Origin: Escherichia phage vB_EcoM_ULIM3
Sequence record: OQ850289
Reading direction: 5' to 3' (one strand)
DNA: 64,000 bases
In this document: positions 3,639 to 44,936 of the stretch, piece by piece
Layout: each line of letters opens with the position of its first letter
Position numbering within the stretch: the first letter of the stretch is position 1
Notes under the pieces: model-generated
Seen by the model: only the letters and a program-made list of their open reading frames with translations
The model's database searches: none
Told to the model about the DNA's origin: nothing
Translations under genes and position numbers: made by a program

Positions 3639-3650
3639 TTTTAAAAGGTG

Positions 3651-3686
3651 TTGACAGACTCTACAAAGTTGCTCTAAAGTCTGTCA
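3651..3686 (+). promoter_or_regulatory. sigma70-type promoter with overlapping 9-bp inverted repeat
   Basis: TTGACA 3651-3656; TAAAGT at 3675-3680; inverted repeat tgacagact (3652-3660) / agtctgtca (3678-3686). Confidence 0.5.
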
Positions 3687-3719
3687 CATCAAACAACAAA
3701 TGAGAGAAGAGAGTAAAAT

Positions 3720-5135
3720 ATGAGCGAATTATTTAAACATGCGCACCTTCATGCAGGTCGAACTGAAAATGGTGCTGTAAACCATACTTCATCAATGTCT
3801 GCTCTTGTAGACTTTTACAAAGCTGCTGGTTCAAGCCGTAGCAACGTAGAAATCTTACCAGACCTGTTCTGCAAAGCTTTGCGTGAGGATGTTGATGTCG
3901 CAGTTCGTATTTTGCTTCATATGCGAGATGTACGAGAAGGTATGGGTGAGCGTAAAGCCTTCAGAACTGTTTTGCTTCAAGCGATTGAAGACAAAGTTTT
4001 AGAGCCTACGCAGGTTCTTCGCATTATGGATAAGATTGCAGAACTTGGTCGTTTTGATGACTTCAAAATCTTCGTAGGTACTCGTTTCGAGACAGATGCC
4101 TTCAAACATTTAGAAGCAGCATTACTAGACCCTGCAACAGCAGGTTTGGCGGCTAAGTGGTTACCACGAGTCAAACCACGTCATAAGCAGTTTGTAAAAC
4201 GTTTCTGCAAGTTTGCCAACTTAAGTGAGAAAGAGTACCGCACACTATTGTCTGCACTATCTGATACAGTTGAGCAAAAAATCTCTGCTAATGAGTTTGG
4301 TAAGATTGACTACAGTAAGATTCCTTCACTTGCTGCTGCACGTTACCAAAAACTGTTTAACCGTAAAGATGGAGAACGCTACAAAGCTTACATCGAGTCA
4401 TTATCAAAGGGTGAGGCTAAGATTAATGCTGGTGCTGTTTACCCATACGATGTGATTAAATCTGTTAAGTATGGTAATGCAGATGTTGCTAATGAGCAGT
4501 GGAAAGCACTACCAAACTGGATGGCAGAGGGTGAGAACATTTTGTGTATGACTGATGTCTCAAGCTCAATGTCTTGGGTGAATTTCGGTTCAATCACTGC
4601 TCTTGATATTGGTGTATCTCTTGCACTGTATGTAGCAGAACGCAATACTGGTTGTTTTAAAAATGAGTTAATGGTTTATTCAACAAACCCTCACTTCATC
4701 GAACTGAGTGGTGATTTACGAAACCGTCATCGTCAGGTAATGCGTTATACTGAATATGGTTCAACTAACTTACAAGCAGCTTTTGACCGTATTCTTGAGA
4801 CAGGTAAAAGAAACAACTTGACTCAGAAAGATATGCCAAGTAAGCTTATCATCTTCTCCGATATGGAGTTCAATCAGGTTGATGGAGCTAACGGTCGTAC
4901 AAACTTTGAAGCAATTCAGAGTAAGTACAAAAAAGCTGGATATGAGATGCCACAACTGGTATTCTGGTACTTAGCAAACCGTAATGGTACTTGCGAAGTA
5001 TCTGTTAAGGATAACGGTGTAGCAATGGTATCAGGGTTCTCTCCAGCCACTTTAAAAGCTCTGCTTGGTGGTGAGAAGTTTGACCCAATCAGCGTAATGC
5101 TCAAAGCAGTAATGGTTGACCGTTATATCTGGTAA
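3720..5135 (+). CDS. vWA-domain protein with MIDAS motif; helical N-terminal domain (Ro60/TROVE-like architecture, hypothesis)
   Basis: 471 aa; perfect DxSxS MIDAS (D-V-S-S-S, nt 4549-4563) in C-terminal half; N-terminal RDVREGMGER motif; own promoter at 3651. Confidence 0.65.
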   Translation: MSELFKHAHLHAGRTENGAVNHTSSMSALVDFYKAAGSSRSNVEILPDLFCKALREDVDVAVRILLHMRDVREGMGERKAFRTVLLQAIEDKVLEPTQVLRIMDKIAELGRFDDFKIFVGTRFETDAFKHLEAALLDPATAGLAAKWLPRVKPRHKQFVKRFCKFANLSEKEYRTLLSALSDTVEQKISANEFGKIDYSKIPSLAAARYQKLFNRKDGERYKAYIESLSKGEAKINAGAVYPYDVIKSVKYGNADVANEQWKALPNWMAEGENILCMTDVSSSMSWVNFGSITALDIGVSLALYVAERNTGCFKNELMVYSTNPHFIELSGDLRNRHRQVMRYTEYGSTNLQAAFDRILETGKRNNLTQKDMPSKLIIFSDMEFNQVDGANGRTNFEAIQSKYKKAGYEMPQLVFWYLANRNGTCEVSVKDNGVAMVSGFSPATLKALLGGEKFDPISVMLKAVMVDRYIW

Positions 5136-5145
5136 AAAGTTTTAA

Positions 5146-5182
5146 AAAGGGTATTGACAATGTGTTTAATACCCTTTAATAT
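5146..5182 (+). promoter_or_regulatory. sigma70 promoter within palindrome, upstream of tRNA island
   Basis: TTGACA 5154-5159, exact 17-nt spacer, TAATAT 5177-5182; inverted repeat aagggtatt/aataccctt spans -35 and spacer. Confidence 0.7.
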
Positions 5183-5244
5183 GTTCTACATAGAAACGAA
5201 ATGAGAGCTTTTCTAAGATACTGAAAAATATTTTAAAAAAGTTC

Positions 5245-5278
5245 TTGACAACCACTAAAAAATAATGTTAAAGTGGTT
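5245..5278 (+). promoter_or_regulatory. second promoter-like element upstream of first tRNA
   Basis: TTGACA 5245-5250 preceded by TTTTAAAAAA; inverted repeat aaccact/agtggtt; weak -10. Confidence 0.4.
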
Positions 5279-5300
5279 ACATAGAGTTTGAAAAGTTTAT

Positions 5301-5377
5301 CTCTGTTTAGCTCAGCTTGGTAGAGCGTTCCGTTTGGGGCGGTAAGGCCGGAGGTTCAAGTCCTCCAACAGAGACCA
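5301..5377 (+). tRNA. tRNA-Pro (TGG)
   Basis: acceptor ctctgtt/aacagag (C1-G72, disc A, CCA encoded); anticodon loop tttgggg; T-arm ggagg-ttcaagt-cctcc; one mismatch in anticodon stem. Confidence 0.6.
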
Positions 5378-5384
5378 AATTAAT

Positions 5385-5462
5385 GTTCCAGTAGACAAAA
5401 TGGTAAAGTCACCACTCTTTCAAAGTGGATATTTGAGGGTTCAAATCCCTTCTGGAACGCCA
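5385..5462 (+). tRNA. tRNA-Glu (TTC)
   Basis: acceptor gttccag/ctggaac; anticodon stem ccact/agtgg, loop ctttcaa; T-loop ttcaaat; CCA encoded. Confidence 0.7.
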
Positions 5463-5467
5463 GTTTT

Positions 5468-5544
5468 GACAGAAGACCAATTGCAGCAAACTTAATCTTA
5501 TTCATCTGAAGGTAAATCGGACAAAGAAGAGATTTGGTCTGGTC
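5468..5544 (+). ncRNA. stem-closed element A (CAGAAGACC...GGTCTGG family)
   Basis: 7-bp helix 5474-5480/5534-5540 (AGACCAA:TTGGTCT) closing a 53-nt AT-rich interior; fills the tRNA-sized spacer between two tRNAs. Confidence 0.4.
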
Positions 5545-5553
5545 ATTAAGAAT

Positions 5554-5630
5554 TGCGGGTATAGAGAAAGGGCGTCTCACATGTCTCATTAGCATGGTAT
5601 CGGCAGGTTCGACTCCTGCACCCGCCTCCA
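5554..5630 (+). tRNA. tRNA with CAT anticodon (Met or Ile2)
   Basis: anticodon stem catgt/gcatg, loop ctcatta; T-arm gcagg-ttcgact-cctgc; acceptor 6/7 paired; CCA encoded. Confidence 0.55.
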
Positions 5631-5634
5631 AATT

Positions 5635-5704
5635 TACAGAAGACCGTTTACAGCAAAATTGAATGAAATTTTTAGCGGAAAAAATTGAAAGATACGGTCT
5701 GGTA
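5635..5704 (+). ncRNA. stem-closed element B (CAGAAGACC...GGTCTGG family)
   Basis: 7-bp helix 5641-5647/5694-5700 (AGACCGT:ACGGTCT); first 28 nt identical to element D. Confidence 0.4.
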
Positions 5705-5715
5705 ATACTAAACAT

Positions 5716-5792
5716 GGTTAGGAAGCACATAAGGTATGTGCGGTCGCCTGTTAAGCGAATGGCACAGGGTTCGAATCCCTGACTAACCGCCA
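5716..5792 (+). tRNA. tRNA-Asn (GTT)
   Basis: acceptor ggttagg/actaacc; anticodon loop ctgttaa; T-arm caggg-ttcgaat-ccctg; CCA encoded. Confidence 0.65.
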
Positions 5793-5801
5793 AATTTAAA
5801 T

Positions 5802-5889
5802 GTGTCGTTATCCCGTAGATGGTAGCGGTGGGGACTGTAAATCCCTTGTCATTGAGACTCGGTAGGTTCGACTCCTACACGGCACACCA
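5802..5889 (+). tRNA. tRNA-Tyr (GTA), long variable arm
   Basis: acceptor gtgtcgt/acggcac; anticodon stem gggga/tccct, loop ctgtaaa; ~15-nt variable arm; T-arm gtagg-ttcgact-cctac. Confidence 0.7.
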
Positions 5890-5894
5890 ATAAA

Positions 5895-5971
5895 GGCTAT
5901 GTAGTTTAACTGGAGAAAATACTCCCCTGTCACGGGAGATGATGTGAGTTCAAGTCTCATCGTAGCCGCCA
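5895..5971 (+). tRNA. tRNA-Asp (GTC)
   Basis: acceptor ggctatg/cgtagcc; anticodon stem ctccc/gggag, loop ctgtcac; CCA encoded. Confidence 0.7.
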
Positions 5972-6056
5972 AATTATAATAAGTATTTCAAAATGATGTT
6001 TTGAGAGGGCTATTTAGCCCCTCCCTTAAAGGGTTCTTACGAGTATCCTTTAAAGG

Positions 6057-6134
6057 AGCAGAAGACCAAATTCAGCAAGTTACTTAAAATTTCAAGCCAA
6101 TTTAATTTTGAAAAATTTAAAACTTGGTCTGGCT
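6057..6134 (+). ncRNA. stem-closed element C (CAGAAGACC...GGTCTGG family)
   Basis: 7-bp helix 6063-6069/6124-6130 (AGACCAA:TTGGTCT); interior AT-rich hairpin. Confidence 0.4.
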
Positions 6135-6143
6135 CAACAAATT

Positions 6144-6278
6144 TACAGAAGACCGTTTACAGCAAAACTTAAACAATCTATTTCTCGGTAAAGAAAAGGC
6201 GAAGGTTCGATTCCTTCACTCGGCAGATGTCGAGTTGGTGTAATGGCAGCACTTAAGATGATAAACAACGGTCTGGTA
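6144..6278 (+). ncRNA. stem-closed element D with internal tRNA-like module
   Basis: 8-bp helix 6150-6157/6267-6274 (AGACCGTT:AACGGTCT); interior has T-arm-like gaagg-ttcgatt-ccttc (6201-6217) and D-loop-like agttggtgtaatgg (6231-6246) but no full cloverleaf. Confidence 0.4.
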
Positions 6279-6421
6279 ATTATCTTTGTAGATAAGTTAT
6301 TAAGCTTACCTGTGAGTATGCGACCACAAAGGGTGAAAGGGTAAATTCTAGATTTAAACCCAAAAAGGCACATCGCTACAGACCTTAAGCAAGTCTGGGT
6401 AGCTTATCTACAAAGATAATT
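6278..6421 (+). repeat. 19-bp perfect inverted repeat (6278-6296 / 6403-6421) enclosing 106 nt
   Basis: aattatctttgtagataag and its exact reverse complement; lies between element D and tRNA-Lys. Confidence 0.75.
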
Positions 6422-6425
6422 TAAT

Positions 6426-6501
6426 GGAAGTGTAGCAGAATGGTGATGCGGCAGACTTTTAATCTGACAGGCGATGGGTTCGAATCCCTCCACTTCTACC
6501 A
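6426..6501 (+). tRNA. tRNA-Lys (TTT)
   Basis: acceptor ggaagtg/cacttct; anticodon loop cttttaa; T-loop ttcgaat (T-stem only 3 bp); CCA encoded. Confidence 0.6.
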
Positions 6502-6505
6502 AAAT

Positions 6506-6582
6506 GGTTCAGTCGCAGATAAGGTAATGCAAGGGTCTCATAAGCCCTATGAATGTGGGTTCGATTCCCATCTGAACCTCCA
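6506..6582 (+). tRNA. tRNA-Met (CAT)
   Basis: acceptor ggttcag/ctgaacc; anticodon stem agggt/gccct, loop ctcataa; CCA encoded. Confidence 0.7.
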
Positions 6583-6584
6583 AT

Positions 6585-42236: not shown

Positions 42237-44936
42237 TTAGTGTACTTCAAGCCAGCTTTTACCAACCTTACCAGTACCTGTAACAAGCGTTTCTTTCTTA
42301 AGGCCTAAGTTCTTAGAAGCTTGTCCATAATACCAGTCAGTAACTGCTTTCACTTCTGCCGTCATACTTTCTGGGCATTCCCAACTCGTCTCATCGTGAT
42401 ATGCGCAGAGTAAGCGAGCACCAATAGCTGGTTGACGACCATTCAACTTCATCAAACCTTCGTCAATCATACGACGACAAGCAAGGTTAATTGCCTCATT
42501 TTGAATCTGAGCCTCTGAACCCATCAAAAGATAGTTCAATAATTTGTGTGGAGATTTACACCACAACCAAGCTCCAGCAACCTTTACAAAGCCCCCTTTA
42601 GAAATTGCAGCAGTCTTACCAAACACCTCTTCAAGAGCCTTTTTAGTTGCTTTGTAGTCAGCTTCCAAGTCATCTAGTAGCTTCTTAATTTTAGGCAAAC
42701 GGATAAAGTAAGTCTGTTTAGTCAGCGCACCTTCCTGAGTAGTCGCAGCTTTAATCGTCTTAGCAAACTTCTCATCACCTGCACCGAATAGCAGTGCATA
42801 GATACCATTCTTAGCTTTCTTACGACCTTTGCTAATCTCATGAAGAAGATTCTCATCCTGAGTAGCTCGACAAGTCAAGATGTCCTGCTCATCGTTCAAG
42901 CTAAAGTAGATACTGTTCAGTGTATGTGCATCAGTCCCTGAATAGACAACGTACAGGTCATTCTCAGAGTCATAGCGAAGGTACTTATCAATCTCTGGGT
43001 TTAGGTACTCATCAAAATGTTTGCAGTAATAGCGTCCATCTTCTTGACGAATGAACTCAATCTCTTCTTTACCTTGCGTTACCGCTTTGGTGAAGTCTTT
43101 GTCACCCATAAAGTTACAAAGGAGAACTAGCTGGGCTGAGTTCATGTCTACAGAGACAACGTTAGTACCTTCTTCACAAATCCACACTGCCCTCATTGGT
43201 TCCCCATAGACAGCAGCACCAGATGGTACGTTTACAATACCATATTGTGTCATACGTCCAGTTGAAGTACCAAACACCATTGCACCAGCACTAAGGCGAC
43301 CATCGGGACGAATCTGGTTCAACCAACCTTTTTCATCATCCTTTGAGTTCTCAATAGTTCTGCGTCGGTGCATCAAAGTATAGTACTTAGCAATCTTCTG
43401 TCCAAGTTCACCTTCAATCGTATCATAAGATGATTCAGTAAGTTTTGGTGAAGTACGGATTAAGCAAGGCTCAAGCAAATCTGTGTATTTCTTCACAGAC
43501 CAGTTATGCTCAATGTACTGGACACCTTCATGTTCAACATAACTTAAACCACATCGTTCCACCATTTCCTGCCACTTAGGATGTTTTGTAATCATCTTTT
43601 TATTGTCTTTGAAACGACAAACTTTGACAGGGCGACCGTCTGAGTCTTTCTTGTAGTTCCAGTCATCTGGAATCCAACCAACTGATTTCAAGTAGTCTTT
43701 AACAACTGCTACCTGAGTCATACGAGAAACTTCAAACTCAATTGGTGTATATGGTGCATCAATCAAACCTGTGTAGCGACTTGACTCAAGTTCAAAGTGG
43801 TTAACAACGTGGCTGTTATAGTACTTCACAGTTTTGACTGTTTTTACTGGCTTCCAGTCTTTGCACTTCTTACCAATCTTTGCATTCAACTCATTGCAAA
43901 TTGCACGAGCATCCTTCATTGCTACAAAACCTTCCTTGTACTCTTCACCAGTTACAGAGTTGGTTGGTGTATAGCAATTTCTCTTTTCAATGTTAAAAAT
44001 CTTCGTAGTTGGCTTACCAAATGGTTTGATTTCGTATGTCTGCATCTCACCATTACGTACCTGCTGACGATACTTTGTCTTAGGGTACTTGGTAATTCTT
44101 TTCAGTCCATCTGCATGACCAAATGTTTCAACATACTCATTCCAAGCTTTTGCAAACTCTTCTCCAGTGACTTTACCTTTGGTCTTAATAGTTGGAGGTA
44201 GATGTGGTTCAACCTCTGAAGCAAGCTCATTAGTCAACTTGTCAAGTTCCTTTACATGGAACTCCATAAGCTCTTTATCAGCTTTCCAACCATTGATAGC
44301 TTGCTGGCTCATCCAGAAAGATGTCTCTTTAGCTCGCATGTAGGTTTCATAAGTGTCTATGCCACACTTCTTAAGCTTGAGATACTCGTTATCAAGTGCC
44401 CGTTTAGTTTTGGCGTTAATACGGATATCTTCTACAACACGAGTGAAGATTTCTGCATTCCACACACCCCAATGCTCAATCTCTGGCTTACGAACACCAA
44501 CACGAGCACCCCATGCAGCCAAGCCATGAGCACCTTTATAACCCTTTGGAGTTGGTCTATCCATCCACTGAACACGAGACTGGATAAGAGAATCCTGAAA
44601 GAAATTACTCCACGGCTTACACTTTGGATTATCAAAGTTCCATAAATCAGGTGCAATGTGATTAAAAACCCACCAGTCATAACCGAGACCGTTATGGATG
44701 CAAAGACGTTTCGCCTTTAATGCAAACTCAATACCTTCACGCAAACCACCCTTAATGTACTTGGTGTACTTGTGACCGAGGATAGGCTCATCTGTAAAAA
44801 CCCATACAGGTGGCTCTTCATCATCAGATTTATAGTCTGCGAAAGCCATTACGTGCACTTTAGTGAACTCAAGGAGTAAACCATCAGTTTCTGTATCACC
44901 AACTAAATGTAAGTTTTTAAAATCTACGTTTTCCAT
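42237..44936 (-). CDS. DNA polymerase, family A, with 3'-5' exonuclease domain
   Basis: exo motif VGDTETDGL; motif B-like KGRKKAKNGIYALLFGAG; motif C YHDE; start set at ATG 44936 with AGAGGGAG RBS. Confidence 0.85.
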   Translation of the reverse strand: MENVDFKNLHLVGDTETDGLLLEFTKVHVMAFADYKSDDEEPPVWVFTDEPILGHKYTKYIKGGLREGIEFALKAKRLCIHNGLGYDWWVFNHIAPDLWNFDNPKCKPWSNFFQDSLIQSRVQWMDRPTPKGYKGAHGLAAWGARVGVRKPEIEHWGVWNAEIFTRVVEDIRINAKTKRALDNEYLKLKKCGIDTYETYMRAKETSFWMSQQAINGWKADKELMEFHVKELDKLTNELASEVEPHLPPTIKTKGKVTGEEFAKAWNEYVETFGHADGLKRITKYPKTKYRQQVRNGEMQTYEIKPFGKPTTKIFNIEKRNCYTPTNSVTGEEYKEGFVAMKDARAICNELNAKIGKKCKDWKPVKTVKTVKYYNSHVVNHFELESSRYTGLIDAPYTPIEFEVSRMTQVAVVKDYLKSVGWIPDDWNYKKDSDGRPVKVCRFKDNKKMITKHPKWQEMVERCGLSYVEHEGVQYIEHNWSVKKYTDLLEPCLIRTSPKLTESSYDTIEGELGQKIAKYYTLMHRRRTIENSKDDEKGWLNQIRPDGRLSAGAMVFGTSTGRMTQYGIVNVPSGAAVYGEPMRAVWICEEGTNVVSVDMNSAQLVLLCNFMGDKDFTKAVTQGKEEIEFIRQEDGRYYCKHFDEYLNPEIDKYLRYDSENDLYVVYSGTDAHTLNSIYFSLNDEQDILTCRATQDENLLHEISKGRKKAKNGIYALLFGAGDEKFAKTIKAATTQEGALTKQTYFIRLPKIKKLLDDLEADYKATKKALEEVFGKTAAISKGGFVKVAGAWLWCKSPHKLLNYLLMGSEAQIQNEAINLACRRMIDEGLMKLNGRQPAIGARLLCAYHDETSWECPESMTAEVKAVTDWYYGQASKNLGLKKETLVTGTGKVGKSWLEVH

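What the first reader, a model, noticed from the sequence alone, without database searches (positions are those of the whole stretch)
5468..6278. Family of four stem-closed, tRNA-sized elements with compensatory base changes inside the tRNA island
Four inter-tRNA spacers (A 5468-5544, B 5635-5704, C 6057-6134, D 6144-6278) share a bipartite signature: 5' ACAGAAGACC and 3' GGTCTGG. The halves pair into a 7-8 bp helix, and its distal two pairs co-vary: AGACCAA:TTGGTCT in A and C versus AGACCGT:ACGGTCT in B and D. The enclosed interior (46-109 nt) is unrelated between copies apart from a short conserved CAGCAA block after the 5' strand. Variable spacing between half-sites argues against a dimeric-protein operator and for a base-paired RNA (or DNA hairpin). 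A-C are each the size of a tRNA and sit exactly where a tRNA would. The AGACC/GGTCT core also recurs as a simple hairpin at 7462-7485 and as half-copies at 7998-8022. I do not recognise this as a known RNA family.
Basis: partly seen in the sequence, partly recalled or inferred. Interest (0 to 1): 0.8.

Follow-up and report, generated by a model that had tools for sequence, protein, structure and literature searches.

The report
Phage Y-RNA-like RNAs beside a Ro60-like gene
The four stem-closed spacers in this Felix O1-type phage's tRNA island are most likely small non-coding RNAs of the Y-RNA kind, one of them a tRNA mimic. They share a conserved "handle" that is probably bound by the Ro60-like protein encoded just upstream, and the same handle marks a large, apparently undescribed RNA family in many phages.

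Summary
Four plus-strand elements (A 5467-5545, B 5634-5705, C 6056-6135, D 6143-6279) share one architecture. It consists of a covarying outer 4-bp helix, an AGA/G internal loop, a 7-8 bp helix AGACCNN:NNGGUCU, and CAGCAA exactly 10 nt after the helix start.

- D's interior is a circularly permuted tRNA-like module (T arm, loop-closed 7-bp acceptor stem, D arm), as in bacterial YrlA Y RNAs.
- The same handle flanks DUF2828 genes in distant phages. It occurs 126 times on the gene strand, once on the opposite strand, and about 2 times in shuffles, at a median 264 nt from the gene.

Covariance models built only from distant phages recover D (E=7e-10) and exactly A, B and C (E about 1e-4) in the 64-kb window. 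Rfam assigns nothing to A-D, although its YrlA model gives sub-threshold hits on D-type relatives.

Best reading: Y-RNA-like scaffolds for a divergent phage Ro60, released by tRNA processing. Binding and function are inferred, not shown. This is a new variant of a known kind.

The parts
3720..5135 (+). Gene for a 471-aa Ro60-like protein: an N-terminal helical-repeat ring plus a C-terminal vWA domain with a MIDAS motif. It is the presumed protein partner of the RNAs and the orthologue of Bas63 gp130.
5154..5274 (+). Two sigma-70-like promoters (5154-5182 and 5245-5274) that would drive the tRNA/Y-like RNA transcription unit.
   Evidence: Consensus scan gives 10/12 matches for each. No terminator-like site lies on the + strand between them and about 6660.
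5467..5545 (+). Element A (79 nt). Outer helix 5467-5470/5542-5545; loop AGA 5471-5473 / G 5541; handle helix 5474-5480/5534-5540; CAGCAA 5484-5489; short hairpin cargo.
   Evidence: Fold. R2 hit 5469-5545, 33.0 bits, E=8.3e-5. R1 E=0.0056. Conserved in 16 Ounavirinae genomes.
5634..5705 (+). Element B (72 nt). Outer helix 5634-5637/5702-5705; AGA 5638-5640 / G 5701; handle helix 5641-5647/5694-5700; CAGCAA 5651-5656.
   Evidence: Fold. R2 hit 5636-5705, 35.4 bits, E=2.6e-5. The outer helix changes UUAC:GUAA <-> UUGC:GCAA among relatives.
6056..6135 (+). Element C (80 nt). Outer helix 6056-6059/6132-6135; AGA 6060-6062 / G 6131; handle helix 6063-6069/6124-6130; CAGCAA 6073-6078; cargo hairpin with loop GCCAAU.
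   Evidence: Fold. R2 hit 6058-6135, 32.8 bits, E=9.4e-5. The cargo hairpin is conserved in distant loci L059, L073 and L006 while the handle helix differs.
6143..6279 (+). Element D (137 nt), a YrlA-like tRNA mimic. Outer helix 6143-6146/6276-6279; AGA 6147-6149 / G 6275; handle helix 6150-6157/6267-6274; CAGCAA 6160-6165.
   Evidence: Fold z=-2.2 with a cloverleaf-like interior. R1, built from 17 distant elements with none from this phage group, hits 6146-6278 full length at 59.2 bits, E=7.1e-10.
6168..6257 (+). Permuted tRNA-like module inside D. 'Anticodon-stem' pairs 6168-6172/6253-6257; long variable-arm-like hairpin about 6176-6199; T arm 6201-6217 (GAAGG UUCGAUU CCUUC); acceptor 3' strand 6218-6224; closing loop AGAU 6225-6228; acceptor 5' strand 6229-6235; U8-G9 6236-6237; D arm 6238-6252 with GG in the loop.
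   Evidence: Read directly from the sequence. T arm plus closed acceptor found by an independent scan. Alignment to R1. The same arm order is in Rfam YrlA, as aligned to relative L087.
5385..6501 (+). Flanking tRNAs whose processing would release the elements: tRNA-Glu 5385-5462, tRNA-Met 5554-5630, tRNA-Asn 5716-5792, tRNA-Asp 5895-5971, tRNA-Lys 6426-6501.
   Evidence: ARAGORN and Rfam tRNA hits. Release by RNase P and 3' trimming is inferred, not shown.

Best explanation
A, B, C and D are four small non-coding RNAs of the Y-RNA kind.

Production. They are co-transcribed with the phage tRNAs from the promoters at about 5154-5274. They are set free as discrete species of about 72-137 nt when RNase P and the tRNA 3'-end nucleases cut out the neighbouring tRNAs.

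The handle. Each RNA is closed by the same module: an outer 4-bp helix, an AGA/G internal loop, a 7-8 bp helix, and a single-stranded CAGCAA placed exactly 10 nt from the first helix base. This handle is the docking site for the Ro60-like ring protein encoded immediately upstream (3720-5135, the Bas63 gp130 orthologue).

The cargo. The variable interior is an effector module. In D it is a circularly permuted tRNA mimic (T arm, acceptor stem closed by a loop, D arm, with the elbow preserved), like bacterial YrlA. In A-C it is a short hairpin with a loop that is conserved within each subtype. As with bacterial Ro60-Y RNA-PNPase complexes, the cargo would tether the Ro-like ring to particular partners or substrates: tRNA-binding or tRNA-cleaving enzymes for D, and others for A-C. 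That would adapt host RNA metabolism, or a defence response, to the phage's benefit.

Shown here: the sequence anatomy, the covariation, the family-wide linkage to the gene, and the protein fold.

Inferred: that the RNAs accumulate, that the protein binds the handle, the processing route, and the downstream function.
For: 1. RNA structure.
- All four elements fold to the same closed architecture.
- In 16 Ounavirinae genomes all four are kept in order and no helix substitution breaks a pair. There is one compensatory change and at least five changes that create G.U pairs.
- In 17 distant D-type elements 89% of cells pair, against 59% in shuffles and 34-44% when the partners are slid. 22 of 23 pairs show changes on both sides.

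2. Family membership, tested without circularity.
- R1 (distant D-type elements only) finds D at E=7e-10.
- R2 (37 distant short elements) finds only A, B and C in 64 kb on both strands. The next hit has E=0.37.

3. Linkage to the protein gene.
- The strict handle signature occurs 126 times on the gene strand, once on the opposite strand, and on average 2.25 times in 20 shuffles of 80 loci.
- 106 of the 126 lie within 1.5 kb of the gene and none lies inside it.
- Outside the Ounavirinae the median distance is 264 nt to the gene and 2.8 kb to the nearest tRNA. 28 loci have elements but no tRNA at all.
- The handle is also present next to the mycobacteriophage Samty 'Ro-like RNA binding protein' gene and next to the Klebsiella phage FBKp34 gene.

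4. In at least 12 distant loci a minimal handle ends 0-5 nt before the Shine-Dalgarno sequence of the Ro-like gene. This is the arrangement expected for autoregulation by a protein that binds the handle.

6. Similarity to YrlA. The Rfam YrlA model aligns full length, below threshold but significantly, to D-type relatives: L087 at 39.6 bits (E=1.4e-5) and L081 at 37.9 bits. Known Y RNAs are encoded next to Ro60 and mimic tRNA (PMC4201824).

7. Literature. Bas63 gp130 was noted as Ro60-like and as a counter to the ppl defence system. Y RNAs were only guessed at among the tRNA genes (PMC11482910; orthology).
Against: - There is no expression, processing or binding evidence for these RNAs from any source I could reach.
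- The protein matches Ro60 only at the level of fold. There is no Pfam TROVE hit and no PDB sequence hit, even with a profile.
- The motif held to mark Ro60 binding in known bacterial Y RNAs (GNCGAAN0-1G; PMC4201824) is absent, so the recognition mode cannot simply be carried over.
- Rfam YrlA does not hit window D even at E<=10.
- ARAGORN does not accept a re-permuted D as a tRNA.
- Gene-RNA adjacency is correlative. A different protein, or a host RNase, could be what reads the handle.
Confidence: 0.72

Rival explanations
1. The handle is a processing or stability signal read by host ribonucleases (an RNase III/E-type stem, or a protective terminal helix) in polycistronic tRNA and leader transcripts. 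The Ro60-like protein has nothing to do with it.
For: The elements sit between tRNAs that must be processed. A bulged terminal helix is a common RNase III or protective motif (general knowledge). No binding data exist.
Against: The elements follow the DUF2828 gene and not tRNAs: median 264 nt against 2.8 kb, and 28 loci have no tRNA. The invariant part is a single-stranded CAGCAA at a fixed 10-nt register, which is typical of a sequence-specific protein site and not of an RNase III substrate. The motif spans phages of Proteobacteria and Actinobacteria, whose RNases differ.
Confidence: 0.1
2. They are cis-acting regulatory structures (attenuators, or translational operators) and not free-standing RNAs.
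For: Minimal handles abut the Shine-Dalgarno sequence of the Ro-like gene in at least 12 distant loci, so some family members probably do act in cis.
Against: In this window the four copies lie downstream of the gene, between tRNAs, with no ORF to regulate. There are no U-tracts or alternative pairings of the attenuator type. Cargo modules, namely the tRNA mimic and the conserved loops, have no role in such a scheme.
Confidence: 0.06
3. They are DNA-level repeats: recombination or homing-endonuclease sites, miniature inverted-repeat elements, or cruciform signals.
For: Inverted-repeat termini flank a variable interior. Gene content differs between related phages in this region (pieces and gaps).
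Against: There is a strict strand bias of 126 to 1. G.U pairs in the helices would be mismatches in DNA. Compensatory changes preserve pairing and not sequence. The asymmetric AGA/G loop and the one-sided CAGCAA are not palindromic.
Confidence: 0.03
4. They are decayed or rearranged tRNA pseudogenes left over from turnover in the tRNA island.
For: They are tRNA-sized and lie in tRNA slots. D contains tRNA arms.
Against: A-C have no tRNA arm at all. D's permuted order, closed acceptor and handle are conserved in phages whose proteins are only 33-47% identical. D's halves are no closer than about 50% to any tRNA of this phage. The handle is more conserved than the flanking spacers.
Confidence: 0.02

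Closest known systems
Bacterial YrlA-type Y RNAs (Rfam RF02553; Chen et al. 2014, PMC4201824)
   Same: They are encoded next to, and on the same strand as, a Ro60-type gene. The 5' and 3' ends pair into a bulged stem. The interior is a tRNA-like domain in the order T arm, loop-closed acceptor stem, D arm (D). Several paralogous RNAs occur per locus, only one of which is tRNA-like (YrlA plus YrlB; here D plus A-C).
   Different: The partner protein is a DUF2828/DUF7788 protein that resembles Ro60 only in fold. The GNCGAAN0-1G motif is absent. The conserved recognition elements here are an (A/U)G...CU|G helix end and CAGCAA at +10. Rfam YrlA scores relatives at 38-40 bits against a gathering score of 69, and does not hit window D. 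Here the RNAs are interleaved with tRNAs.
Phage Ro60 with Y-RNA-like RNAs: Thermus phage phiLo phiRo60 with Yrl1/Yrl2 (PMC12135203), and the TROVE-annotated phage genomes searched in PMC4201824 (22 bacteriophages, among them several mycobacteriophages known to encode Ro60)
   Same: A phage encodes its own Ro60-like ring and neighbouring stem-closed RNAs. The suggested role is in hijacking host RNA metabolism or evading defence.
   Different: Those systems use canonical TROVE proteins and a CGAA-containing internal loop. The present family has a different protein family and a different handle. It is far more widespread in the phage records searched: 709 GenBank phage records carry the protein.
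Bas63 gp130 (PhageMaP preprint, PMC11482910)
   Same: It is the orthologous protein in the same genomic position. It was reported there as structurally Ro60-like and as counteracting the ppl defence system.
   Different: The preprint only speculates that some annotated tRNA genes might be Y RNAs. The candidates found here are the non-tRNA spacers, which are unannotated or covered by dubious minus-strand ORFs.
Metazoan Y RNAs (RF00019)
   Same: They have a modular design: a conserved bulged terminal stem for Ro60 plus a variable loop that recruits other factors, with 2-4 paralogues per genome.
   Different: There is no sequence or model similarity (no Rfam hit). Metazoan Y RNAs have no tRNA-like domain.

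Membership tests
Bacterial Y RNA / YrlA (RF02553) | Encoded within about 2 kb of, and on the same strand as, a Ro60 orthologue | tested here: met
   A-D lie 330-1140 nt downstream of 3720-5135 on the + strand. That protein is Ro60-like by fold, though not by Pfam TROVE.
Bacterial Y RNA / YrlA (RF02553) | The 5' and 3' ends pair into a long bulged stem | tested here: met
   4 bp + AGA/G loop + 7-8 bp in all four elements. Pairing is kept in 16 relatives.
Bacterial Y RNA / YrlA (RF02553) | GNCGAAN0-1G motif near the 5' end (proposed Ro60 contact; PMC4201824) | tested here: not met
   The 5' strand reads ACAGAAGACC, with no CGAA. Across the family the conserved block is CAGCAA/CCGCAA/CUGCAA at +10.
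Bacterial Y RNA / YrlA (RF02553) | tRNA-like domain: T arm, loop-closed acceptor stem, D arm | tested here: met
   Met for D only (6168-6257). A-C lack it, as do YrlB/Yrn2-type Y RNAs.
Bacterial Y RNA / YrlA (RF02553) | Reaches the Rfam gathering score (69 bits) | tested here: not met
   No YrlA hit on A-D at E<=10. D-type relatives score 39.6, 37.9 and 24.7 bits.
Bacterial Y RNA / YrlA (RF02553) | Physically bound and stabilised by the Ro60 protein | not testable with these tools
   Needs RIP/EMSA and a deletion of the gene.
tRNA (RF00005 / ARAGORN) | Cloverleaf in normal order with an anticodon arm, called by the tRNA models | tested here: not met
   ARAGORN and Rfam and 24 tRNAs in the window but none in A-D. 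Only D's T arm gives a 14.9-bit fragment. A re-permuted D with an added anticodon loop is not called by ARAGORN.
CAGCAA-handle RNAs next to DUF2828 genes (family defined here) | Closing helix of 7-10 bp beginning (A/U)G, CNGCAN exactly 10 nt after the first helix base, an unpaired G after the 3' strand, same strand as and near a DUF2828 gene | tested here: met
   All four elements meet every item. Independent models R1 and R2 recover them.
Ro60/TROVE proteins (partner gene 3720-5135) | Helical-repeat ring plus a vWA domain with MIDAS | tested here: met
Ro60/TROVE proteins (partner gene 3720-5135) | Sequence membership (Pfam TROVE, or a hit to solved Ro60 sequences) | tested here: not met
   Pfam finds only DUF2828 + DUF7788. 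phmmer and profile hmmsearch against PDB sequences find no Ro60.

The most novel reading that the evidence does not exclude
DUF2828 proteins and CAGCAA-handle RNAs form a widespread, so far undescribed class of modular phage ribonucleoproteins. This would be a second Ro-Y system with its own recognition code. One protein ring is loaded with interchangeable RNA cargos: permuted tRNA mimics, tRNA bodies without an acceptor stem, 200-250-nt structured RNAs, and short conserved hairpins. The protein also autoregulates through a mini-handle at its own ribosome-binding site. In Felix O1-type phages this RNP would be the actual agent behind gp130's anti-defence activity.
Probability: 0.5. Interest if true: 0.85.

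Novelty: new variant of a known kind. Interest (0 to 1): 0.72.

Why it matters
Ro60-Y RNA particles are conserved from bacteria to humans, yet what the tRNA-like domain of bacterial Y RNAs does is still open.

- These results turn a vague suggestion (that some tRNA genes of Bas63 may be Y RNAs) into four defined candidate RNAs with coordinates, a predicted binding module and testable mutations. The phage is one whose Ro60-like gene already has a phenotype, counteracting the ppl defence system.
- They indicate that a large family of unknown function (DUF2828/DUF7788, in 709 GenBank phage records including Felix O1-, KVP40-, Campylobacter-, Listeria-, Staphylococcus- and mycobacteriophage-type genomes) is an RNA-binding Ro paralogue with its own RNA partners.
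- They give a simple sequence-structure signature by which hundreds of unannotated phage ncRNAs can be found.
- The variety of cargos on one handle gives a natural series for asking what Y-RNA modules recruit.

Tried and rejected
- Rfam at gathering and at E<=10 on the island gave nothing for A-D. YrlA appears only for relatives, and below threshold.
- ARAGORN on native D and on a re-permuted D with an artificial anticodon loop found no tRNA. D is therefore a partial mimic (acceptor/T/D elbow) and not a hidden or permuted functional tRNA gene.
- I checked whether D was recently derived from one of the phage's own tRNAs. The best combined identity is about 50%, so I rejected this.
- A loose handle scan with variable spacing gave 495 hits on the + strand and 456 on the - strand, so it was uninformative. 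The signal appeared only after fixing the 10-nt register and the 3' G.
Its only use was as a control: 15 of 128 occurrences have the closing helix, and 12 of those 15 lie in four contigs (L146, L157, L161, L189) that each carry two or more handle copies, as the Ounavirinae loci do.
- Sequence searches of the protein against PDB, both single-sequence and profile, found no Ro60. Only the fold comparison shows the relationship.
- Promoter reading of TTGACA/TTTACA at the 5' ends of A, B and D: there is no acceptable -10 hexamer and they are not in the promoter scan. Rejected.
- The 7462-7485 hairpin and the 7998-8022 repeats as family members: rejected.
- Reviews on bacterial Y RNAs (PMC10870794, PMC6047535) and Burroughs & Aravind 2016 were not held. 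I therefore cannot exclude that DUF2828 was already called Ro-like there.
- The supplementary tables of PMC4201824 were not held. I therefore cannot exclude that some DUF2828-type phage loci were in that survey.
Full report
**1. What the window is.** The 64-kb window comes from a Felix O1-type myophage (Felixounavirus, Ounavirinae). The region 5100-8400 is 94-97% identical to many E. coli and Salmonella phages. It carries a plus-strand island of 26 tRNA genes at 5301-10245 (Rfam confirms 24).

**2. Checking the observation.**
- The exact 9-mer CAGAAGACC occurs four times in the window, only at the four sites named. GGTCTGG occurs at the four matching 3' positions.
- RNAfold gives all four the same closed shape. 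Then comes the 7-8 bp helix AGACCAA:UUGGUCU (A, C) or AGACCGU(U):(A)ACGGUCU (B, D). After 2-3 nt comes CAGCAA.
- Refined coordinates are A 5467-5545, B 5634-5705, C 6056-6135 and D 6143-6279.

**3. D is a tRNA mimic in permuted order.** Read 5' to 3', D's interior contains the following:
- a 5-bp 'anticodon-stem' remnant (6168-6172 with 6253-6257);
- a long variable-arm-like hairpin;
- a canonical T arm, GAAGG-UUCGAUU-CCUUC (6201-6217);
- the acceptor 3' strand ACUCGGC, a closing loop AGAU, and the acceptor 5' strand GUCGAGU (7 bp, one G.U);
- U8-G9 and a D arm with the GG of the D loop (6238-6252).

This is the arm order of bacterial YrlA Y RNAs, in which the acceptor stem is closed by a loop and the anticodon side opens into the protein-binding stem (PMC4201824; compare the Rfam YrlA consensus). 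It is not a tRNA gene. ARAGORN and Rfam do not call it. A re-permuted version with an artificial anticodon loop is not called either. It is no closer than about 50% to any tRNA of the same phage.

**4. The gene next door is a Ro60-like protein.**
- The 471-aa ORF at 3720-5135 ends 165 nt before the first tRNA. Pfam sees only DUF2828 and DUF7788. Sequence searches against solved structures find nothing relevant.
- The MIDAS residues (D279, S281, S283, T349, D381) are invariant in the family.
- The orthologue in phage Bas63 is bas63_0130, in the identical position. A 2024 preprint reported gp130 as structurally Ro60-like and as counteracting the ppl defence system. It speculated that some of the downstream tRNA genes might be Y RNAs, but identified none (PMC11482910).

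**5. The handle is a family-wide signature tied to this gene.**
- I fetched 80 viral contigs that encode relatives of the protein, most of them 39-47% identical.
- A scan that knew nothing about the handle (T arm followed by a short closed acceptor hairpin) found permuted tRNA-like modules beside the gene in a dozen distant loci. On inspection each was enclosed by a helix of a different sequence, followed by the same CAGCAA (or CCGCAA/CUGCAA) block.
- The rule that emerged has three parts. The closing helix is 7-10 bp and begins (A/U)G. CNGCAN starts exactly 10 nt after the first helix base. An unpaired G follows the 3' strand.
- With that rule there are 126 hits on the gene strand, 1 on the opposite strand, and a mean of 2.25 in 20 composition-preserving shuffles of the 1.06 Mb. 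106 of the 126 lie within 1.5 kb of the gene (0.4-0.5 per kb against 0.03 per kb elsewhere), and none lies inside it. 58 of 80 loci have at least one within 1.5 kb.
- The elements follow the gene and not tRNAs. Outside the Ounavirinae the median distance is 264 nt to the gene and 2.8 kb to the nearest tRNA, and 28 loci have elements but no tRNA in the DNA held.
- The same handle lies directly downstream of the 'Ro-like RNA binding protein' gene of mycobacteriophage Samty (three copies, the middle one tRNA-like). It also lies downstream of the gene in Klebsiella phage FBKp34. The protein itself is present in 709 GenBank phage records from many host phyla.

**6. Non-circular tests that A-D belong to the family.**
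- Model R1 was built from 17 D-type elements of distant phages, with no Ounavirinae sequence. It hits D full length at 59.2 bits, E=7.1e-10. It also picks up A and B through the handle alone. Its remaining weak hits are junctions between adjacent tRNAs, which is expected for a permuted-tRNA model.
- Model R2 was built from 37 short elements of distant phages. It finds exactly B, A and C in the whole window on both strands (E=2.6e-5 to 9.4e-5). The next hit has E=0.37.
- On the R1 seed alignment the named structure (handle, T arm, acceptor, D arm) has 89% of cells paired, against 59% in shuffles and 34-44% with slid partners. 22 of 23 pairs change on both sides. Part of the handle signal in that set is selected for. 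The elements first found through their T arm and acceptor were not selected for it.

**7. Evolution among close relatives.**
- All four elements are kept, in the same order, in 16 Ounavirinae genomes from Felixounavirus, Suspvirus and Mooglevirus. The C+D region is present in 252 GenBank phage records, where it is unannotated or overlapped by small minus-strand 'hypothetical protein' ORFs.
- Every helix substitution keeps pairing. B's outer helix switches UUAC:GUAA to UUGC:GCAA. C's outer helix becomes GGAGC:GUUCC. Five further transitions create G.U pairs, for example AGGCC:GGUCU and AGACUGU:ACGGUCU. G.U pairs and the 126:1 strand bias place the function at the RNA level on the plus strand.
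- D's acceptor stem is ACUCGGC/GUCGAGU here and ACACG/CGUGU in Mooglevirus and Suspvirus relatives.
- Cargo is conserved within subtypes. C's hairpin AAAAUUUCAA-GCCAAU...-UUGAAA recurs in loci L059, L073 and L006 under handle helices of quite different sequence.

**8. Relation to known families.**
- Rfam holds a YrlA model (RF02553). It does not hit A-D.
- It does align full length to D-type relatives, at 39.6 bits (L087, E=1.4e-5), 37.9 bits (L081) and 24.7 bits (L012), against a gathering score of 69. The alignment matches T arm, closed acceptor and D arm, while the CAGCAA handle falls outside the matched 5' end.
- The motif considered to mark Ro60 binding in known bacterial Y RNAs, GNCGAAN0-1G (PMC4201824), or the CGAA loop of phage phiLo Yrl RNAs (PMC12135203), is absent.
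- The elements therefore work like Y RNAs and are plausibly distant relatives of YrlA, but they fail two membership criteria for that family. I file them as a new variant: Y-RNA-like RNAs with a different handle, partnered with a Ro60 paralogue recognisable only by fold.

**9. How it most likely works.** Two promoter-like sites (5154-5182, 5245-5274) precede the island. No plus-strand terminator-like site lies between them and about 6660. A-D are therefore co-transcribed with tRNA-Pro through tRNA-Ile.

Inferred steps:
- RNase P and the tRNA 3'-end nucleases that excise the flanking tRNAs release A (between tRNA-Glu and tRNA-Met), B (between tRNA-Met and tRNA-Asn), and C and D (between tRNA-Asp and tRNA-Lys). 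The terminal helices protect the ends.
- The Ro60-like protein binds the handle.
- The cargo recruits partners or substrates. D presents a tRNA elbow and acceptor to tRNA-recognising proteins.

Support for protein-handle binding beyond adjacency comes from distant loci. In at least 12 of them the last handle, often a minimal 32-40-nt hairpin, ends 0-5 nt before the Shine-Dalgarno sequence of the Ro-like gene. That is the classic layout for translational autoregulation by an RNA-binding protein. The link to anti-defence activity rests on the Bas63 gp130 phenotype (PMC11482910) and is not tested for the RNAs.

**10. Rivals.**
- A host-RNase processing signal, at about 0.10. Against it: the linkage to the gene, the sequence-specific single-stranded block, and the host range.
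- Purely cis-regulatory elements, at about 0.06. This is likely true for the leader mini-handles, but not for the copies in this window.
- DNA-level repeats, at about 0.03. Against it: the strand bias, the G.U pairs and the compensatory changes.
- tRNA pseudogenes, at about 0.02. Against it: conservation of the permuted order in distant phages, and the absence of tRNA features in A-C.

**11. Limits.**
- Nothing here shows expression, processing or binding.
- The handle statistics use a signature derived from the same loci, although the strand, shuffle and leave-out-model controls are independent of that.
- E-values from the session's models are rough because calibration was shortened.
Prior description of this handle elsewhere cannot be fully excluded. 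In the searchable library only the Bas63 preprint connects Felixounavirus with Y RNAs.

Noticed in passing
window 6276-6425 (+): Immediately after D lies a 150-nt spacer that folds into a very stable structure closed by a helix of about 24 bp (MFE -48.3 kcal/mol, z=-6.3, 0 of 200 shuffles as stable). It has no CAGCAA handle and no Rfam hit. In Bas63 it is covered by a small minus-strand 'hypothetical protein' ORF (bas63_0138). It is probably another ncRNA.
   Followed up: partly
window 5972-6058 (+) and 7976-8072 (+): Two more non-tRNA spacers fold much better than shuffles (z=-4.3 and z=-3.7). Neither belongs to the handle family.
   Followed up: partly
window 7462-7485 (+): AAAGACC-UUUU-GGUCUUU hairpin followed by a U run. 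It looks like a weak intrinsic terminator and not a relative of A-D. The terminator scan did not list it because it has too few G-C pairs.
   Followed up: partly
window 6602-6906 (+): Sub-threshold Rfam hits to permuted tmRNA (6602-6785, 32.5 bits, gathering 47) and tmRNA (6717-6906, 16.1 bits), in a spacer that also holds the best promoter-like site of the island (6675-6703, 11/12). These may be just tRNA-like fragments.
   Followed up: no
L007 5840-6064, L008 2843-3060, L011 4973-5184, L016 628-833, L028 6409-6659: Structured RNAs of 200-250 nt share internal motifs (for example GGACGAUGUAAAAGGUUCGAAC ... CCCUUACA) and are closed by the same CAGCAA handle (helix AGAGUGG/A). This is a large-cargo class of the family with no Rfam match.
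   Followed up: partly
L059 6758-6853 and L049 6734-6833: Handle-closed elements whose cargo is a tRNA body in normal order (D arm, anticodon arm, T arm) with no acceptor stem. The handle helix takes the acceptor's place. Rfam tRNA scores L059 6778-6843 at 41.3 bits. This is a second way of mimicking tRNA within the same family.
   Followed up: partly
L007 6954-6986, L011 6952-6986, L012 1764-1795, L016 2859-2890, L028 6950-6985, L032 6903-6937, L043 6906-6945, L055 6907-6943, L060 2150-2189: Minimal handle hairpins (32-40 nt, with CAGCAA in the loop) whose 3' strand ends right at the Shine-Dalgarno sequence of the DUF2828 gene. This suggests translational autoregulation. No such leader hairpin is present in this window (3639-3719).
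   Followed up: partly
L081 4462-4719 (Mycobacterium phage Samty, MH727559.1 about 42308-42565): Three handle RNAs lie downstream of gp54 'Ro-like RNA binding protein'. They overlap the annotated ORF gp55 (hypothetical protein), which may therefore be a mis-annotation.
   Followed up: no
L212 2911-3063 (Bas63 bas63_0137), and similar small ORFs in other records: Small minus-strand 'hypothetical protein' ORFs are annotated across element D in several GenBank records. Given the plus-strand RNA signature they are probably spurious.
   Followed up: no
L024 8605-9054; L025 12696-12922: A phage-encoded tmRNA (75 bits) and a group I intron (71.5 bits) lie near the DUF2828 gene in two metagenomic phage contigs.
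   Followed up: no
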